From Octopus sinensis (lineage: Eukaryota), in the NCBI RefSeq assembly GCF_006345805.1, contig NW_021832879.1, forward strand, positions 1-30,041: DNA of 30,041 bases, given 5' to 3'. The position numbers were made by a program, and so were the translations under genes. Each line of letters starts with the position of its first letter. Within the stretch, counting starts at the first letter, position 1. Shown one piece after another: positions 3,856 through 30,041 of the stretch. The notes below the pieces were generated by a model, which was given only the letters and a program-made list of their open reading frames with translations, was not told the origin of the DNA and did not search any database.

Positions 3856-3868
3856 TGATATATATATA

Positions 3869-4090
3869 AAGTTAATCCAAACAAGAAAACACAAAAAAAC
3901 AAAAAAACACAACAATGCGAGGACGTGGAACATATAAAGTATTATTGGACGCTCGGGAAAGAAGGGAAGAAGGAGGGTTTAACGTTTCGAGCGGAGCTCT
4001 TCGTCGGAAACATAGGAGAAGGAAAGATCCCGAGAAGGGAAGACAGAGGAAAAAAAATCGCCAGTGGTACTCACGAGGTCACATATTGAA
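3869..4090 (-). mobile_element. short Penelope-like/non-autonomous repeat carrying a hammerhead-like motif, between (TA)n runs
   Basis: Flanked by (TA)n on both sides. Minus strand 4011-3977 reads GTTT-CCGACGA-A-GAGC-TCC-GCTC-GAAA-CG-TT-AAAC. Shares downstream TTCCYGAGCG..AATA with 23120-23278. Confidence 0.55.
3977..4011 (-). ncRNA. minimal type I hammerhead-like ribozyme motif (U4C core variant)
   Basis: Stem I GUUU/AAAC, core CCGACGA, stem II GAGC/GCUC, GAAA, palindromic ACGU stem III, GUU cleavage triplet. Confidence 0.55.
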
Positions 4091-13167: not shown

Positions 13168-14718
13168 CAGGGTGTTAATAGTATTTTAGGGTATATTTGG
13201 AAATTTAATAAATCATCTAGCAAAATCCGACTATATTTTGATCGAAATTTGTGTACATGTCATAAGTTTATAAGATTCTTTTATAAATCGGCCTTCAGCT
13301 TTGATGATTGCTTCAATATATCACCAGATTCGTTGACGTACCTACACTAAATGGTTGTCATTCATTTTGGACAATGGAGGCCTTCATTGACGCTGTAGTA
13401 TTGAGAGGATGTCGATTATTCTCCCTTTCAACACAGCTCGAGGCATAGTAGTCCATGGTATCTAAATCTGGGAAGTTTGAAGGCCACAAATCTGGTGTTA
13501 CATGGCCGTGAAGATTATCTGACATCTGTCCTTGTGTTACGTTGGCTTTATGATAAGGTATTGAGTCTCTTTTAATCACATATTGTCTTCCACTATGTAG
13601 TTCATCCTTCTAGGGCTAAATAACTGTCTCCATTACTTCAACGTATCCAGCAGCATTAATTATAACATTATATGGGAAGATGTGAAGTGGTACACCTCAC
13701 TAAAGACCATCACATTTGCTGGAAACTTAGTGGTCATCAGTTTAGGAACATCTGATGGATCTGCACATAACCATTTGTCATTTCTGCTGTTAGACATTTG
13801 ATCTGGGTCGAGGTTTTCCTCATCAGAAAAGAACCAGTGCATACCGTGCTCGTAAGAGTTTTTAAGCTTGTAATTTGTTAAATAACTGCTAGGCGTAAAT
13901 CAAATGGTTTACAAACATGAATTGGCCTTTCCTCAGTGCATACGACTTGTACCGAATATCTTCGTGCACCAAAGTTCTGATAGTCGGCTCCGAGACCTGA
14001 AGTTTTTTGGCGATGCCCGTCACTCATTTTCTGGGTCACTCACTTTCTGGAACCTGTCGGATAAAGCGCGCTGTAGTTGAAGAATCATATCGTTTAGAAT
14101 ATTTTCTTTGATACAGTTCAAACCTTCCCGCTTGAGGCTTCCAATTGCATCCGAGCATTGCGTACAAAAGCTCTTGCAACTTTCAGAAATCGATGTGTTC
14201 CGTTGATATGGTAAAAATGACTGTATGTCTTCCTTTTCTTGAGATAACAATCTGCTATGGTGGACAAGAATGAAATAATTTGTTTAATGAGAGTAATATA
14301 CTGATGATGTGGAGGCGCAATGGCCCAGTGGTTAGAGCAGCGGACTCGCGGTCATAAGATCGCGGTTTCGATTCCCAGACCGGGCGTTGTGAGTGTTTAT
14401 TGAGCGAAAACACCTAAAGCTCCACGAGGCTCCGGCAGGGGATGGTGGTGATCCCTGCTGTACTCTTTCACCACAACTTTCTCTCACTCTTACTTCCTGT
14501 TTCTGTTGTACCTGTACTTCAAGGGGGCCGGCCTTGTCACTCTCTGTGTCACGCTGAATCTCCCCGAGAACTACGTTAAGGGTACACGTGTCTGTGGAGT
14601 GCTCAGCCACTTACACGTTAATTTCACGAGCAGGCTGTTCCGTTGATTCGGATCAACCGGAACCCTCGTCGTCGTAACCGACGGAGTGCTTCCATACTGA
14701 TGATACCCGTTGCACTCT
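13168..14718 (-). mobile_element. Tc1/mariner-superfamily DD37D (maT-like) transposon relic
   Basis: Minus strand WFFSDEE...NDKWL...VP...KFPANVMVF...INAAGY...RDSIPYHKANVTQ...LWPSNFPDLDTMDY, with 37 aa between the 2nd and 3rd D. Ends CAGGGTG (13168) and CACTCTG (to ~14718) are diverged TIRs. SINE C sits in the right TIR. Confidence 0.85.
14309..14693 (+). mobile_element. full-length tRNA-derived SINE family C with 11-bp TSD
   Basis: tRNA-like head GGCGCAATGGCCCAGTGGTTAGAGCAGCGGACTCGCGGTC...GGTTTCGATTCCC. TSD ATACTGATGAT at 14298-14308 and 14694-14704. Inverted near-identical copy at 26565-26958. Confidence 0.95.
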
Positions 14719-16115: not shown

Positions 16116-16794
16116 TTGTTGTTATTGGCACTTCATGATCGATTTAGTTGTTGTTATTGGCACTTCATGATCGATTTAGTTGTTGTTATTGGCACTTCAT
16201 GATCGATTTAGTTGTTGTTATTGGCACTTCATGATCGATTTAGTTGTTGTTATTGGCACTTCATGATCGATTTAGTTGTTGTTATTGGCACTTCATGATC
16301 GATTTAGTTGTTGTTATTGGCACTTCATGATCGATTTAGTTGTTGTTATTGGCACTTCATGATCGATTTAGTTGTTGTTATTGGCACTTCATGATCGATT
16401 TAGTTGTTGTTATTGGCACTTCATGATCGATTTGTTGTTGTTATTGGCACTTCATGATCGATTAGTTGTTGTTATTGGCACTTCATTCATGATCGATTAG
16501 TTGTTGTTATTGGCACTTCTGATCGATTTAGTTGTTGTTATTGGCACTTCATGATCGATTTAGTTGTTGTTATGGCACTTCATGATCGATTTAGTTGTTG
16601 TTATTGGCACTTCATGATCGATTTAGTTTTGTTATTGGCACTTCATGATCGATTTAGTTGTTGTTATTGGCACTTCATGATCGATTTAGTTGTTGTTATT
16701 GGCACTTCATGATCGATTTAGTTGTTGTTATTGGCACTTCATGATCGATTTAGTTGTTGTTATTGGCACTTCATGATCGATTTAGTTGTTGTTA
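16116..16794. repeat. 32-bp minisatellite, ~21 copies (TTGTTGTTATTGGCACTTCATGATCGATTTAG)
   Basis: Period of 32 read directly (GATTTAG at 16141, 16173, ...). Units are contiguous with no spacers. Confidence 0.97.
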
Positions 16795-17829
16795 ATGCGC
16801 ATTTCAGCCCGATGATCAAAGCGTTATAGATGTGACTACCTTCATCTTTTATTCAGGTGTAGAGTACTTAAGACTTTCTTATCTAATGTGACATTTTTTA
16901 AAGAAACTTGTGTATCATCTTGTCGTGGAATTCGACTGCTATTTCTAACAAGTCAAGTAACAACTTAAGTTTTCCTTTCAATACTTTCTCCGGTATGGTA
17001 GTCTTTTTAGTAACACTCAACGTCTCCCCATCTCTCATTGGTAACAGTGGGGTACTAATACTAATTTATAATTTTGGGATGACCCTTTAGAGCTCTTTCA
17101 ATTTTTGATATTGCTTGCGAGAAGAGTAAATGAATAACCATCTGCATCACTTTGGACTGATGGAGTCTTCTCTCTTTAACACAAAGGATTTTCGATTTTC
17201 TGACAGAGAAGTTTGATAAGATCAAGGCTACATGCACGCATACTCACATATACATTAACACAAGCATGTACACACATACTCAGCATATACACACATACAC
17301 ACATATATATATAGACATATACATTCAAACCCAACGATATCTTTTAAAACTTTTTTATATATAATCTTAAATACCCATCGGCACAGACTTTAATTGGCAT
17401 GCAACCATTTCTAGAATATTCGTGATAAGCTCATCGCGTTTTTTAAGGATTGTATCATATATTATACGTTACTATAAATTATGCATACCTTTAAATATGC
17501 GTATGTAAGAGAGAGGGAGAGAGAGAGAGAAAGAAAATGTGCACATTATTACTGCTTGGAAGACATATTTAATTTCCAATTATGCTTCTTATATTCGTAA
17601 ACGCACAGCCTGTAAAAATTCATGGGGTAAGATAAAGAAAAAGAAAGCTGTAAGCAACGTAGAAAAGTCTAAACTTTTCACAAGAAGATCTACGATTTGG
17701 TTTCCATTTTCTGCTGCCTCTATACAGGTCTCTTCTGTTGTGCTTTCTCGTGGGAGAAGCATTAGCCATAAAACTTCCTACTGCAGAAAAATATAAAATC
17801 TTAAAATAATAGATTATAGCATGGATCTA

Positions 17830-22438: not shown

Positions 22439-22482
22439 CTATTCCTCATGATGGAGTGAGATTTGCTCGAAATGTGGAATAG
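22439..22482 (+). ncRNA. degenerate minimal hammerhead-like motif
   Basis: CTATTC-CTCATGA-TG-GAGTGA-GAT-TTGCTC-GAAA-TG-TG-GAATAG: perfect 6-bp stem I, 6-bp stem II with G-U pairs, GAAA. The core has G5C and the triplet would be GUG (non-cleavable). Confidence 0.45.
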
Positions 22483-22641
22483 ATAAACAGCCGACAACTA
22501 ATGAAGGGTCGTTCTTTGTGTTACTTGTCTTGTTTTCCATGTTTCTCTCGCTGTTCGCATACCAAGGTTTGCTTTCGTTTTTCATGTTGTTTTCGTATTT
22601 CATGTTCTTTGTAACGTCCTGTACCCATATATGCGCAACAT

Positions 22642-23099: not shown

Positions 23100-23119
23100 C
23101 TGATTATATATATATATAT

Positions 23120-23278
23120 CGCCATGTTGAATCGCTAGCTTCTGTACGCATTTTTTTTCTCTCCTTGTTTCTCTCCGTATTTCTTTTCTGTGTATCTTTC
23201 TGTTGAAGAGCGTAGGCTCGAAACGTAAAAGACTTGTTTTATTTCTATTCCTGAGCGCCATACTAATACAATTGCTTG
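23120..23278 (+). mobile_element. short Penelope-like/non-autonomous repeat carrying a hammerhead-like motif, between (TA)n runs
   Basis: Flanked by (TA)n. Same layout as 3869-4090: pyrimidine tract, ribozyme-like motif, TTCCTGAGCG..TAATAC. Confidence 0.55.
23195..23232 (+). ncRNA. minimal type I hammerhead-like ribozyme motif (A6U core variant)
   Basis: TCTTT-CTGTTGA-A-GAGC-GTAG-GCTC-GAAA-CG-TA-AAAGA: 5-bp stem I, 4-bp stem II, palindromic ACGU, GUA triplet. Confidence 0.55.
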
Positions 23279-23284
23279 TATATA

Positions 23285-23324
<40 letters not shown>

Positions 23325-25525: not shown

Positions 25526-25736
25526 CTTATCATTTGCATTCATGCTTCACCTAGTCTAAACAATCATTTTCTGTGAGAAAAATATGTTGTACACTTGTTA
25601 AAAAGACGTCTTGGATTTTAATACTTATGTTTTGGGGGCATGAATTAGGACGATATGTGTCTATATGGGTACGTATTGATGATGTTTTTATCATTTCTTC
25701 GTAATGGTTAAATAACTATCAGTAAAAGCCAAGAAT

Positions 25737-25998
25737 GTGCAGGAGTGGCTGTGTGGTAAGTAGCTTGCTAACCAACCACATGGTTCTGGGTTCAGTCCCA
25801 CTGCGTGGCACCTTGGGAGAGTGTCCTCTCCTCAAGCCTCGGGCCAACCAAAGCTTTGTGAGTGGATTTGGTTGAAGGAAACTGAAAGAAGCCCGCCGTA
25901 TATATATAATGTGTGTTGTGTGTGTATGTGTGTGTGCGTGTGTGTTTTGTGTGTGTGTGTGTGCGTGCGTGTGTGTGTGTGCGTGTGTGTGTGTGTGC
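25737..25998 (+). mobile_element. SINE family A head plus its (TA)/(TG) linker, tail missing
   Basis: Near-identical to 29520-29680. Confidence 0.9.
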
Positions 25999-26487: not shown

Positions 26488-26564
26488 TGATAAGTGAGTC
26501 CTGCAAAATATGGACTGTTGTACTAAAATGTGTGTATGTGTGTTTATATTTTCCCCAGTTAACT

Positions 26565-26958
26565 GGAAGCACTCCGTCGGTTACGACGACGAGGGTTCCG
26601 GTTGATCCGATCAACGGAACAGCCTGCTCTCGAATGAAATTAACGTGTAAGTGGCTGAAACACTCCACAGACACGTGTACCCTTAACGTAGTTCTCGGGG
26701 ATATTCAGCGTGACACAGAGAGAGTGACAAGGCCGGCCCTTTGAAATACAGGGACACAACAGAAACAGGAAGTAAGAGTGAGAGAAAGTGTGGGTGAAAG
26801 AGTACAGCAGGGATCACCACCATCCCCTGCCGGAGCCTCGTGGAGCTTTAGGTGTTTTCGCTCAATAAACACTCACAACGCCCGGTCTGGGAATCGAAAC
26901 CGCGATCCTATGACCGCGAGTCCGCTGCCCTAACCACTGGGCCATTGCGCCCCCCCCC
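26565..26958 (-). mobile_element. full-length SINE family C with 12-bp TSD
   Basis: Reverse complement of 14309-14693; TSD CCCCAGTTAACT at 26553-26564 and 26959-26970. Confidence 0.95.
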
Positions 26959-27317: not shown

Positions 27318-27562
27318 TTAATGGAAAAGTAATGTTTTCTAATCAGTTTAAAAACGTTTCTACGCTCATTCGTTTTGACGAAGTTGTTCAAAGCGTTTGT
27401 ATTTCCCCACCAACACCACCACAACCAGATTTCAGTGGTACTCTTGCACCCGCTGTACTCTCTGTTCACGAGCCTAGGAATGGCTAGAACTAGTAAAAGA
27501 AGTATGAAATAAAAAATAAAACAAAAAGAGTAAAGTAAGTAACTGATCGGTGAAGATACATA

Positions 27563-27968
27563 GTCGCAGGAGTGGCTGTGTGGTAAGTAGCTTGTTTACA
27601 ACCACCATGATTCCGGGTTCAGTCCCACTGCATGGCACCTTGGGAAGTGTTCTTCTACTATAGCCTCGGGCCGACCAAAGCCTTGTGAGTGGATTTGGTA
27701 GACGGGAACTGAAAGAAGCCCGTTGTATATACGTATGTTTATATATATATAAGTATATATATATATATATGCGTGTGTATGTTTGTGTGTCTGTGTTTGT
27801 AACCCAGCATTGCTGGTGTGTTTACTCCCCGTCACTTAGCGGTTCGGCAAAAAGAGACCGATAGAATAAGTTACGGGCTTACAAAGAATAAGTCCCGGGG
27901 TCGATTTCCTCGACTAAAGGCGGTGCTCCAGCACGGCCGCAGTCAAATGACTGAAACAAGTAAAAGAG
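27563..27968 (+). mobile_element. full-length SINE family A (tRNA head, CORE-like CCTTGGG.AAGT, internal microsatellite, AAAAGAG tail)
   Basis: A box TGGCTGTGTGG, B box GGTTCAGTCCC; matches 29520-29933. Confidence 0.95.
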
Positions 27969-28287
27969 ATCGTTGAAGATACTGGGCTTTCTTATGGTCA
28001 ATACATCTATAAAGCAGGGGACACAACTCTTTCATTTTTTTTTAATGCTCGATCCTTTCAAGAAGAAAATAAACAAAATAAAAAAAAGATTTGATGCGAA
28101 ATTCATTCCAGCTTTACGTAAATGACCAGAACCTCATGCGACTGAGAACCAAAATCTAAGCATGAAGTCAGCTCTCAGAGATTAATGGTGTTCTACATCG
28201 ATCGACGTTTATAGTTATTTAGTTTCGTATATTTAAGAGAACGAGTCGAGGAGGACGACCGCTACGTTGACGGGCGACGGTGGCGAC

Positions 28288-28318: not shown

Positions 28319-28343
28319 TATGTAGGTGGCGTAGTGATCGTCA

Positions 28344-28760
28344 TACTCTTACTCCTTTACTCTTTTACTTGTTTCAGTCATTTGACTGCGGCCATGCTGG
28401 AGCACCGCCTTTAGTCGAGCAAATCGACCCAGGGACTTATTCTTTTTGTAAGCCCAGTACTTATTCTATCGGTCTCTTTTGCCGAACCGCTAAGGACGGG
28501 GACGTAAACACACCAGCATCTGTTGTCAAGCAATGCTAGGGGGACAAACACAGACACACAAAAACACATACACACACATATATATATATACATATATACG
28601 ACAGGATTCTTTCAGTTTCCGTTTACCAAATCCACTCACAAGGCATTGGTCGGCCCGGGGCTATAGCAGAAAACACATGCCCAAGATGCCACGCAGTGGG
28701 ACTGAACCCGGAACCATGTGGTTGGTTAGCAAGCTACTTACCACACAGCCACTCCTGCGC
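28344..28760 (-). mobile_element. full-length SINE family A
   Basis: Reverse complement of 27563-27968 and 29520-29933. Confidence 0.95.
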
Positions 28761-29321
28761 TTGAAGATGATTTAGTTTCTTTTATTATTGCGAAATAATA
28801 ATAAGTATTTAATTTGTTTTTAAGCTTAAAAAAGGCTTTTAGTTTACCATGTCTTTTTGCAAACTGCACTCATAAATAAAGCGTCCACGATGAATGGTAA
28901 ACACTGTCAAATTGTATTCCTAAATTCAGATATTTTTTTTTTTTACTGTACTATATTAAAAAACTAAAATTATTTGTTTGTAAGCTTAAAATAAGTTTTT
29001 TATTAACCATGTATTATTGAGAATGCATTCATAAATAAAGTACAGAACAGAATGGTTGTTATCGGTTTAGCCTACTGACAAGTAAATTCGACCTAGCCTA
29101 GAGGTAAGTTAATTCGACTTAAGTGGGTTTTTTCGACTAAAGTCGTGTCTCCTGGAACCAATGAACGACGTAGGCTGAGGTATGCCTAATATATATAGTA
29201 TATATATAGATATAATATATATATATATATATATATCTATATATACTATATATATCATATATATATATATATATATATAATATAATTGACACACACACAC
29301 TCACTCACATGCATGAACATG

Positions 29322-29498
29322 CATCAACCGATGTTGATGTGTTTACATCCCCGTAGCCAAACGGTTCGGCAAAATTACCCGATAGAATAAGTACTAGGCT
29401 TATAAAGAATAAGACCTGGGGTCGATTTGCTTGACTAAAGGCGGTGCTCCAGCGTGGCCGCAGTCAAGTTGCTGAAACAAATAAAAGAGTAAAAGAAT
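29322..29498 (+). mobile_element. SINE family A tail half
   Basis: CAACCGATGTTG...CGGTTCGGCAAAA...GGCGGTGCTCCAGC...TAAAAGAGTAAAAG. Confidence 0.9.
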
Positions 29499-29519
29499 AT
29501 ATATACATACATACATATA

Positions 29520-29933
29520 GGCGCAGGAGTGGCTGTGTGGTAAATAGTTTGTTAACCAACCACATGGTTCCGAGATCAGTCCCACTGCGTGGCACCTTGG
29601 GCAAGTGTCTTCTACTATAGCCTCGGGCCGACCAAAGCCTTGTGAGTGGATTTAGTAGACGGAAACTGAAAGAAGCCCGTCGTATATATGTATATATATA
29701 TATACAGTTATAGTTATATATGTGTGTGTGTATGTTTGTGTGTCTATGTTTGTCCCCCTAGCATTGCTTGACAACCGATGCTAGTGAGTTTATGTCCCCG
29801 TCACTTAGCGATTCGGCAAAAGAGACCGATAGAATAAGTACTGGGTTTACACAGAATAAGTCTCGGGGTCGAGTTGCTCGATTAAAGGCGGTGCTCCAAA
29901 TGACTGAAACAAGTAAAAGAATAAAAGAGTAAA
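29520..29933 (+). mobile_element. full-length SINE family A (short internal deletion in tail)
   Basis: GGCGCAGGAGTGGCTGTGTGG...CCTTGGGCAAGTGTCTTC...TGACTGAAACAAGTAAAAGA. Confidence 0.95.
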
Positions 29934-30041
29934 AATGTATACATACATACATACATACGTATATATATATATGAACATATATGCAAATATACGTTATGCA
30001 CACGGGCATACATACATATACATTGGCATATATGAAGTGTC

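What the first reader, a model, noticed from the sequence alone, without database searches (positions are those of the whole stretch)
23195..23232. Second minimal hammerhead showing compensatory stem changes relative to 3977-4011
Seen: same layout as the 3977-4011 motif with identical stem II arms (GAGC/GCTC), extra A and GAAACGT. It differs in the stem II loop (GTAG vs TCC), the still-paired stem I (TCTTT/AAAGA vs GTTT/AAAC), the triplet (GUA vs GUU) and the core deviation (CTGTTGA vs CCGACGA). Both are followed ~20 nt later by TTCCYGAGCG..AATA. Pairing kept while sequence changes suggests selection on RNA structure. Inference: a family of microsatellite-embedded, ribozyme-bearing non-autonomous retroelements with variant cores. 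The conserved downstream GAGCG could alternatively pair with the GCTC arm and switch the fold.
Basis: partly seen in the sequence, partly recalled or inferred. Interest (0 to 1): 0.75.

Follow-up and report, generated by a model that had tools for sequence, protein, structure and literature searches.

The report
Penelope hammerhead with fixed core change
The motif is the small hammerhead RNA carried in the end repeat of a very abundant Penelope-type jumping gene, a known arrangement, but this lineage has a U in place of a normally fixed core A and has kept the rest of the fold almost unchanged, so it is likely a slowed rather than discarded ribozyme; cutting is untested.

Summary
The motif is real. 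It lies in a 159-bp fragment (23120-23278) of the pseudo-LTR of a Neptune-type Penelope-like retrotransposon. Full elements carry it at both ends of an RT plus GIY-YIG ORF (4 of 5 fetched). The 3977-4011 motif belongs to a sister family (RT 67-69% identical). The stem II/GAAACGT pattern has 36,242 genomic matches against 17 for the control. Between the two window copies only one stem I pair is compensatory; a metagenomic outgroup adds two and shows that A6 is ancestral. The finding's lineage has fixed A6U (13,318 versus 474 copies). Position 7 takes all four bases, while the rest of the block survives dS about 0.7, so selection continued after the change. Insertion ends do not pile up at the cut site, and the proposed GAGCG switch is unsupported. 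Best reading: a slow, probably protein-assisted dimer ribozyme; a dead but conserved signal is the main rival. Hammerheads in Penelope repeats are published. I found no paper with A6U, but could not read Lünse 2017. This scan noted A6U before, in shark-like genomes, and a fixed core change elsewhere in this genome.

The parts
23120..23278 (+). Solo pLTR fragment of Neptune-type Penelope-like element, family B; starts at the family's preferred 5' end (100 nt before G12) and lacks about the last 50 nt of the usual 3' end
   Evidence: 95% identical over 161 nt to the 3' end of ORF-bearing element L092
23195..23199 (+). Hammerhead stem I, 5' arm (TCTTT)
23200..23207 (+). Core box C3 U4 G5 U6 U7 G8 A9 plus extra A; U6 at 23203 replaces the canonical A6
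23208..23219 (+). Stem II GAGC/GCTC with GTAG loop
23220..23227 (+). G12 A13 A14, palindromic ACGU (stem III can close only in a dimer), H17 = A; predicted cut after 23227
   Evidence: sequence; layout as in the PMC4209133 consensus
23228..23232 (+). Stem I, 3' arm (AAAGA)
23248..23269 (+). Downstream block TTCCTGAGCG...AATAC shared with family A; function not determined
23105..23119 (.). (TA)n at the 5' junction
23279..23323 (.). (TA)n at the 3' junction, likely the insertion target
3868..4090 (-). Solo pLTR of sister family A; 5' end 102 nt before G12
3977..4011 (-). Family A minimal hammerhead with U4C core (CCGACGA), TCC loop, GUU triplet

Best explanation
23195-23232 is the minimal type I hammerhead motif in the pseudo-LTR of a Neptune-type Penelope-like retrotransposon whose lineage has fixed an A6-to-U core change, and it likely works as a slow, probably protein-assisted ribozyme that would cut only when two copies pair through their palindromic ACGU. 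Shown: the parent elements (pLTR-ORF-pLTR, RT + CxxxxCxxC linker + GIY-YIG), the fixed head-to-tail junction, A6 as the ancestral state, fixation of U6, and continued purifying selection with a hammerhead-shaped pattern. Inferred: the RT primes at the TATATA about 105 nt after the cut site, using genomic (TA)n as target. Short copies such as the window's likely come from RNA that starts about 100 nt before G12 (putative start site). Long copies come from more-than-unit templates, either uncut multimers or circles made by cleavage and religation. Cleavage would touch only a minority of transcripts. The window copy itself is a single inert fragment with no same-strand partner in the window.
For: Parent ORFs. 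HHR at both ends in 4 of 5 elements fetched. HHR upstream of the ORF start in 13 of 30 loci, fixed junction in 18 of 30. Pattern counts 36,242 versus 17; U6 13,318 versus non-U6 474. Position-ordered chromosome-1 sample, family B (49 of 51 rows, two dropped as truncated or indel): U6 49/49; N7 = T17, A13, C11, G8; H17 = A37, U11, G1. 0 of 18 non-anchor core or stem columns carry a shared alternative allele, against 75 of 146 flank columns (Fisher p 7e-6). Young versus old B elements: dS 0.67-0.70, dN/dS 0.26-0.28, yet at most 2 differences in the 27-nt block (binomial p 3e-5). A versus B: dS about 1.9, 2 differences in 29 positions. Outgroup contig (RT 62-63% identical) has a canonical A6/U4 core, G-C and C-G in place of two U-A pairs and a G-U in stem II. 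In 11 hand-picked rows, 97.7% of cells pair and 3 of 4 stem I pairs change on both sides. Published: natural A6C and U4C cores keep low activity (PMC3088659, PMC7151607). A Poseidon HHR cleaves only with the element's protein (PMC11167929).
Against: No cleavage was measured. Changes at position 6 strongly lower activity (PMC3088659 section 8; PMC7151607), and canonical min-HHRs are already weak (PMC4209133). 5' junctions on (TA)n show no dominant peak at the cut: 5 of 32 loci at +1 in B, as many as at the loop TA, and 4 of 25 in A. Only 2 of 52 3' junctions end there. Nearest-neighbour energies favour an inactive monomer hairpin (-10.2 each) over the double hammerhead (-14.7 for two); monomer z-score -1.64. 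Stem I pair 4 is broken in 14 of 49 B copies. A family-A subfamily (6 of 42 copies) has a U-U mismatch in stem I, and loop II is also conserved, so conservation is not limited to catalytic needs. Two of the three double changes rest on one outgroup sequence. The samples were anchored on YTCGAAACGT and partly chosen by eye, and low-complexity flank alignments inflate the flank count. HHR mutants did not affect insertion in vitro for Poseidon (PMC11167929).
Confidence: 0.55

Rival explanations
1. The motif descends from a hammerhead but no longer cuts. It is kept as a binding or dimerisation signal for the element's RT-endonuclease, or as part of the pLTR promoter DNA.
For: A6U in family B and U4C in family A arose separately and did not stop amplification. 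No end pile-up at the cut site. Loop II and the downstream GAGCG block are also conserved. HHR cleavage was dispensable in vitro in PMC11167929, and Naiads spread without canonical HHRs (PMC8557442).
Against: The positions free to vary are those that catalysis leaves free: N7 in all four states, H17 as A, U or C but not G at subfamily level. C3, G5, G8 and A9 stay fixed. A DNA motif would not need the pair changes seen against the outgroup.
Confidence: 0.33
2. The short repeats are a self-propagating non-autonomous (retrozyme- or SINE-like) family, with the downstream GAGCG as a conformational switch.
For: Of sampled copies that reach 85 nt before G12, 18 of 31 (B) and 24 of 31 (A) begin within 85-113 nt, giving a unit of about 210 nt. 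Occasional TA-separated tandems occur (L027). A preprint derives animal retrozymes from pLTRs.
Against: Short copies match the pLTR of ORF-bearing elements subfamily by subfamily. No diagnostic short-only family was seen, and most copies are single. The motif lacks a closing stem III. Switch pairing probability is 0.04-0.07, with no covariation.
Confidence: 0.08
3. The core is decaying neutrally in a ribozyme that the element no longer needs.
For: Core deviations in both window copies; weak stem I conservation.
Against: At most 2 changes in 27 nt over dS about 0.7 after U6 was fixed. The non-U6 copies look like post-insertion noise: 68 C, 23 A and 9 G in the first 100 of 474, counted by hand, with A spread over all N7 backgrounds.
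Confidence: 0.04

Closest known systems
Minimal type I hammerheads (min-HHR) in pLTRs of metazoan Penelope-like elements (Cervera and de la Peña 2014, PMC4209133; seen: main text parts 1-2 of 4, supplement file 2 part 2 of 3; supplement file 1 not searchable)
   Same: Type I, extra nucleotide between 9 and 10.1, G10.1-C11.1, palindromic 15.2-16.2 without loop III, short stem I, U-rich 5' flank, both pLTRs, mostly solo copies
   Different: U at position 6 (family B) and C at position 4 (part of family A). Every row of the alignment part I saw has A6 and U4; their descriptor fixed the core, so it would miss these variants.
Neptune clade of endonuclease-positive PLEs (Craig et al. 2021, PMC8557442; seen: passages and supplement rows)
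   Same: RT followed by CX2-5CxxC linker and C-terminal GIY-YIG with CCHH-type residues, partial tandems, (TA)n preference; 59 of 95 residues identical to Neptune1_Ap in one RT block (counted by eye)
   Different: Long low-complexity 3' UTR (about 1 kb in B, about 3 kb in A); I found no description of these two families
Natural core variants A6C (phage Bcep176) and U4C (viroid) (PMC3088659: passages and section 8; PMC7151607: part 1 of 4)
   Same: Single change at the same core positions, with low but detectable activity
   Different: Here U rather than C, fixed in more than 13,000 copies, in a ribozyme without known tertiary contacts
Poseidon (Anolis) HHR (Frangieh et al. 2024, PMC11167929; seen: parts 1-2 of 4)
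   Same: pLTR hammerhead, internal RT start downstream of it, AT-rich targets, no RNA or insertion ends at the cut site
   Different: Canonical core overlapping the ORF start; there priming is without homology, here copies end at TATATA matching the target
Small dimer-cleaving hammerhead variants of PLEs (Lünse et al. 2017; not held, only the title seen in a reference list)
   Same: By title and citing passages: short stem III, dimer cleavage, PLE association
   Different: Cannot tell whether A6U is among its variants
Non-LTR retrozymes (PMC7229834: passages; bioRxiv 2026.07.22.740005: part 1 of 5)
   Same: Short non-coding type I HHR repeats related to pLTRs
   Different: Those are tandem arrays, with canonical HHRs in PMC7229834; here mostly solo pLTR pieces with a minimal motif

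Membership tests
PLE minimal hammerhead | Core consensus CUGANGA-H / GAAA / UH | tested here: not met
   U6 in 13,318 of 13,792 pattern matches; all other core positions met
PLE minimal hammerhead | Extra nucleotide 9/10.1, G10.1-C11.1, palindromic 15.2-16.2 | tested here: met
PLE minimal hammerhead | Stems I and II supported by covariation | tested here: inconclusive
   1 double change within the genome, 2 more from one outgroup; stem II has only a one-sided change
PLE minimal hammerhead | Located in pLTRs flanking an RT-EN ORF | tested here: met
PLE minimal hammerhead | Self-cleavage as dimer | not testable with these tools
   indirect end tests show no peak
Neptune-clade PLE | Single ORF, RT then C-terminal GIY-YIG | tested here: met
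   L242 has RT to EN in one stop-free frame; Pfam RVT_1 E 2e-08. GIY-YIG reaches only E 0.013, below cut-off, in L186 and is not hit in L242, so it rests mainly on motifs.
Neptune-clade PLE | CX2-5CxxC linker finger | tested here: met
   CSRPRCRTC in L242, CSRSRCNTC in L186; shared with Nematis and Naiad per PMC8557442
Neptune-clade PLE | Phylogenetic placement among reference PLE RTs | not tested
   no reference set on hand; only a by-eye block comparison with Neptune1_Ap
Neptune-clade PLE | Partial tandem pLTRs and (TA)n targets | tested here: met
Non-LTR retrozyme | Tandem arrays of non-coding units with an HHR in each | tested here: not met
   no same-strand second copy among 30 position-ordered 3-kb loci; rare TA-separated pairs; units are pLTRs of coding elements
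Non-LTR retrozyme | Abundant small circular RNA | not testable with these tools
   only contigs of guessed-RNA runs were available

The most novel reading that the evidence does not exclude
The U6 hammerhead is an active, deliberately tuned-down ribozyme, rescued by the element's own protein, that cuts and religates Neptune RNA into unit-length circles. Circles give the long insertions with 5' repeats of any length, while linear RNA from the pLTR start site gives the tens of thousands of roughly 210-nt solo copies. Hint: 0 of 13 long copies whose 5' repeat reaches 85 nt before G12 stop at the preferred 5' end, against 18 of 31 sampled B copies (p 4e-4). Read-through of tandem masters explains this equally well.
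Probability: 0.25. Interest if true: 0.68.

Novelty: new variant of a known kind. Interest (0 to 1): 0.42.

Why it matters
What hammerheads do for Penelope-like elements is an open question. Here two sister families, each with many thousands of copies, fixed different core changes (A6U, U4C) yet kept the fold. That gives a natural allelic series (canonical, C4, U6) in one sequence background for testing whether cleavage is needed, attenuated or protein-rescued. It also shows that descriptor searches fixed on CUGANGA miss more than 13,000 motifs in this genome. The single window copy has no special role.

Tried and rejected
Rfam, whole window: the listed 150 of 311 rows were microsatellite matches, mostly to miRNA models; local scan gave no hammerhead. 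Cut-site footprints at 5' ends and 3' ends: no dominant peak. These tests see only TA-flanked junctions and the first 100 rows of 161, 159 and 108, and TA microhomology at the cut confounds them. GAGCG switch: low predicted pairing. Expression: no RNA holder listed on record; guessed-RNA contigs cover the stretch but cannot show strand, level or ends, so they are not used as evidence. Contigs of four runs under four organism labels show variation at N7 (23204) and no variant of 4% or more at 23203; weak, because divergent families may not lay. Flank-only tree and RT tree had poor internal support and were not used for branching order. PDB sequence search: 0 hits. The bacterial promoter scan is not informative here. 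Paper searches for A6U and for cephalopod or Neptune hammerheads listed no paper that, from titles, abstracts or the passages read, reports an A6U hammerhead; one search listed 20 of 884 unspecific hits. Lünse 2017 is not held, and supplement file 1 of PMC4209133 could not be searched; either may hold this variant.

Full report
Observation. The motif is present as described. Only it and 3977-4011 pass a relaxed minimal-hammerhead scan of the window; shuffles give 0.03 hits per window. Rfam does not recognise it. Between the two window copies just one pair (stem I pair 4, C-G versus G-C) is compensatory, and stem II is identical.

Context. The window is a gene-free, microsatellite-rich contig of a 2.7-Gb animal genome; that it is a cephalopod is my guess and comes from no call. 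The motif sits in a 159-bp repeat fragment, 23120-23278, between (TA)n runs. Its 40 best genomic matches are 97-100% identical. Relatives end about 102 nt after the cut site at a fixed TTCCCGT followed by TA repeats (24 of 29 at 101-102 nt); the window copy stops about 50 nt earlier. A pattern covering stem II and GAAACGT of both families has 36,242 matches against 17 for the reversed control.

Parent elements. Walking upstream reached an ORF with RT (Pfam RVT_1), a CxxxxCxxC linker and a GIY-YIG motif (Pfam E 0.013 only). Of 30 loci picked by the ORF start, 13 carry the exact motif about 700 nt upstream and 18 share one fixed head-to-tail junction. Four of five fetched elements have the U6 motif at both ends, 4.3-4.5 kb apart, and one has RT to endonuclease in a single stop-free frame. 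The 3977-4011 family traces to a sister ORF, 67-69% identical to the best B protein. One RT block is 59 of 95 identical to Neptune1_Ap by eye. So both motifs are pLTR hammerheads of Neptune-type Penelope-like elements, the arrangement published in PMC4209133.

The core change. I sampled 93 copies from the first 8.5 Mb of contig C1: 30 loci and 60 regions chosen by eye from the 100 rows, leaving out other families and 5'-truncated rows. Family A (42 copies) has A6 throughout and U4 or C4 (20 and 22). Family B (49 after dropping two rows) has U6 throughout, N7 in all four states, and H17 = A or U. Genome-wide, U6 has 13,318 matches and other bases 474; the latter are mostly transitions, and A6 is scattered, so no A6 subfamily was seen. 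A metagenomic contig with a related RT (62-63% identical) carries, inverted upstream of its ORF, a canonical A6/U4 motif with two further stem I pair swaps and a G-U in stem II; a second contig has a decayed copy about 540 nt downstream of its RT match. A6 and U4 are therefore ancestral. In 11 hand-picked rows 3 of 4 stem I pairs change on both sides, but two of these rest on that one outgroup, and the tool's shuffle ignores relatedness.

Selection. In family B none of 18 non-anchor core and stem columns has a shared alternative allele, against 75 of 146 flank columns; in A it is 4 of 18 against 75 of 164 (p 0.046). Young and old B elements differ by dS about 0.7 in the ORF (dN/dS 0.26-0.28) but at most at 2 of 27 motif positions; A and B differ by dS about 1.9 but at 2 of 29. 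The old-B comparison rests on one copy (L191). Against a purely catalytic reading: loop II is also conserved, stem I pair 4 is broken in 14 of 49 B copies, and one A subfamily has a U-U mismatch in stem I.

Does it cut? Not shown. Changes at position 6 give low activity, with Mn preference for A6C (PMC3088659, PMC7151607). Folding energies favour an inactive monomer in which the core pairs with the ACG. Insertion junctions do not pile up at the cut (5 of 32, 4 of 25 and 2 of 52 loci, counted by hand), and more than 13,000 copies run intact from the core through GAAACGT. This matches the Poseidon study, where the hammerhead cut only with protein and was dispensable for insertion in vitro (PMC11167929).

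Two classes of copy. 5' ends of short copies cluster 85-113 nt before G12 in both families (18 of 31 and 24 of 31 copies that reach that far); both window copies start there. For old subfamilies part of this may be the limit of alignment. I read the cluster as the start site of an internal pLTR promoter, as reported for Penelope (PMC2377424, abstract only); this is inference. Long copies ignore the cluster (0 of 13), so they come from more-than-unit templates, either tandem read-through or circles; many of the 13 look like one young subfamily.

The switch idea. Pairing of GCTC with the downstream GAGC has probability 0.04-0.07, shows no covariation and is missing downstream of the outgroup motif. 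The block is conserved between A and B, so it probably has some role, which I did not determine.

Verdict. A known system (Penelope pLTR minimal hammerhead) with a core variant that fails the strict consensus but is held by selection. I found no paper reporting A6U, with Lünse 2017 unread. Earlier unreviewed notes of this scan report A6U and U4C in shark-like genomes and a fixed core change in this genome; I did not check them, and they are leads only. New variant of a known kind; interest 0.42.

Noticed in passing
window 22463-22630: Fragment of another repeat in which a GAAAYGU box precedes a CU(A)AUGA box, the reverse of the normal hammerhead order; it resembles the scrambled hammerheads noted by earlier scan reports in this genome. 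One more copy in L102.
   Followed up: partly
G000:C1:843192, 932591, 2753851, 5164255 and others: A further abundant repeat with CTTCGAAACGT flanked by two crossing helices (GTTTCAT/ATGAAAC and TCGCCTT/AAGGCGA); probably the same scrambled-hammerhead class.
   Followed up: no
L218:about 560-940 (G000:C14:22332448-22335731): A family A solo pLTR lies head-to-tail, directly in front of a family B pLTR-ORF; A-B same-strand neighbours also occur at C1:6208220/6208461. The invariant ACGU could allow heterodimers.
   Followed up: no
L187 (G000:C1:11745800-11753000): A family B-like RT/EN fragment lies upstream of a family A 3' end, a possible chimera or nested insertion.
   Followed up: no
L111 and L050: Another minimal hammerhead family with canonical core and a longer stem II (GGCTG...CAGCC).
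   Followed up: no
5' UTR of L199, L207, L214-L225: Conserved GATACTTACC and related ACTCTTACC motifs in the 5' UTR read as 5' splice-site-like GGTAAGT on the opposite strand (consensus recalled).
   Followed up: no
window 16116-16806: 32-bp minisatellite, 21.6 copies, 96% matches.
   Followed up: no
window 14297-14696 and 26561-26949; 25733-25908, 27554-27969, 28339-28775, 29324-29937: Several copies of other dispersed short repeats, some in inverted pairs; they look like SINEs.
   Followed up: no
L091:3-930 in element orientation: A second, more distant RT fragment with a GLYRDD motif, probably another Penelope-like clade.
   Followed up: no
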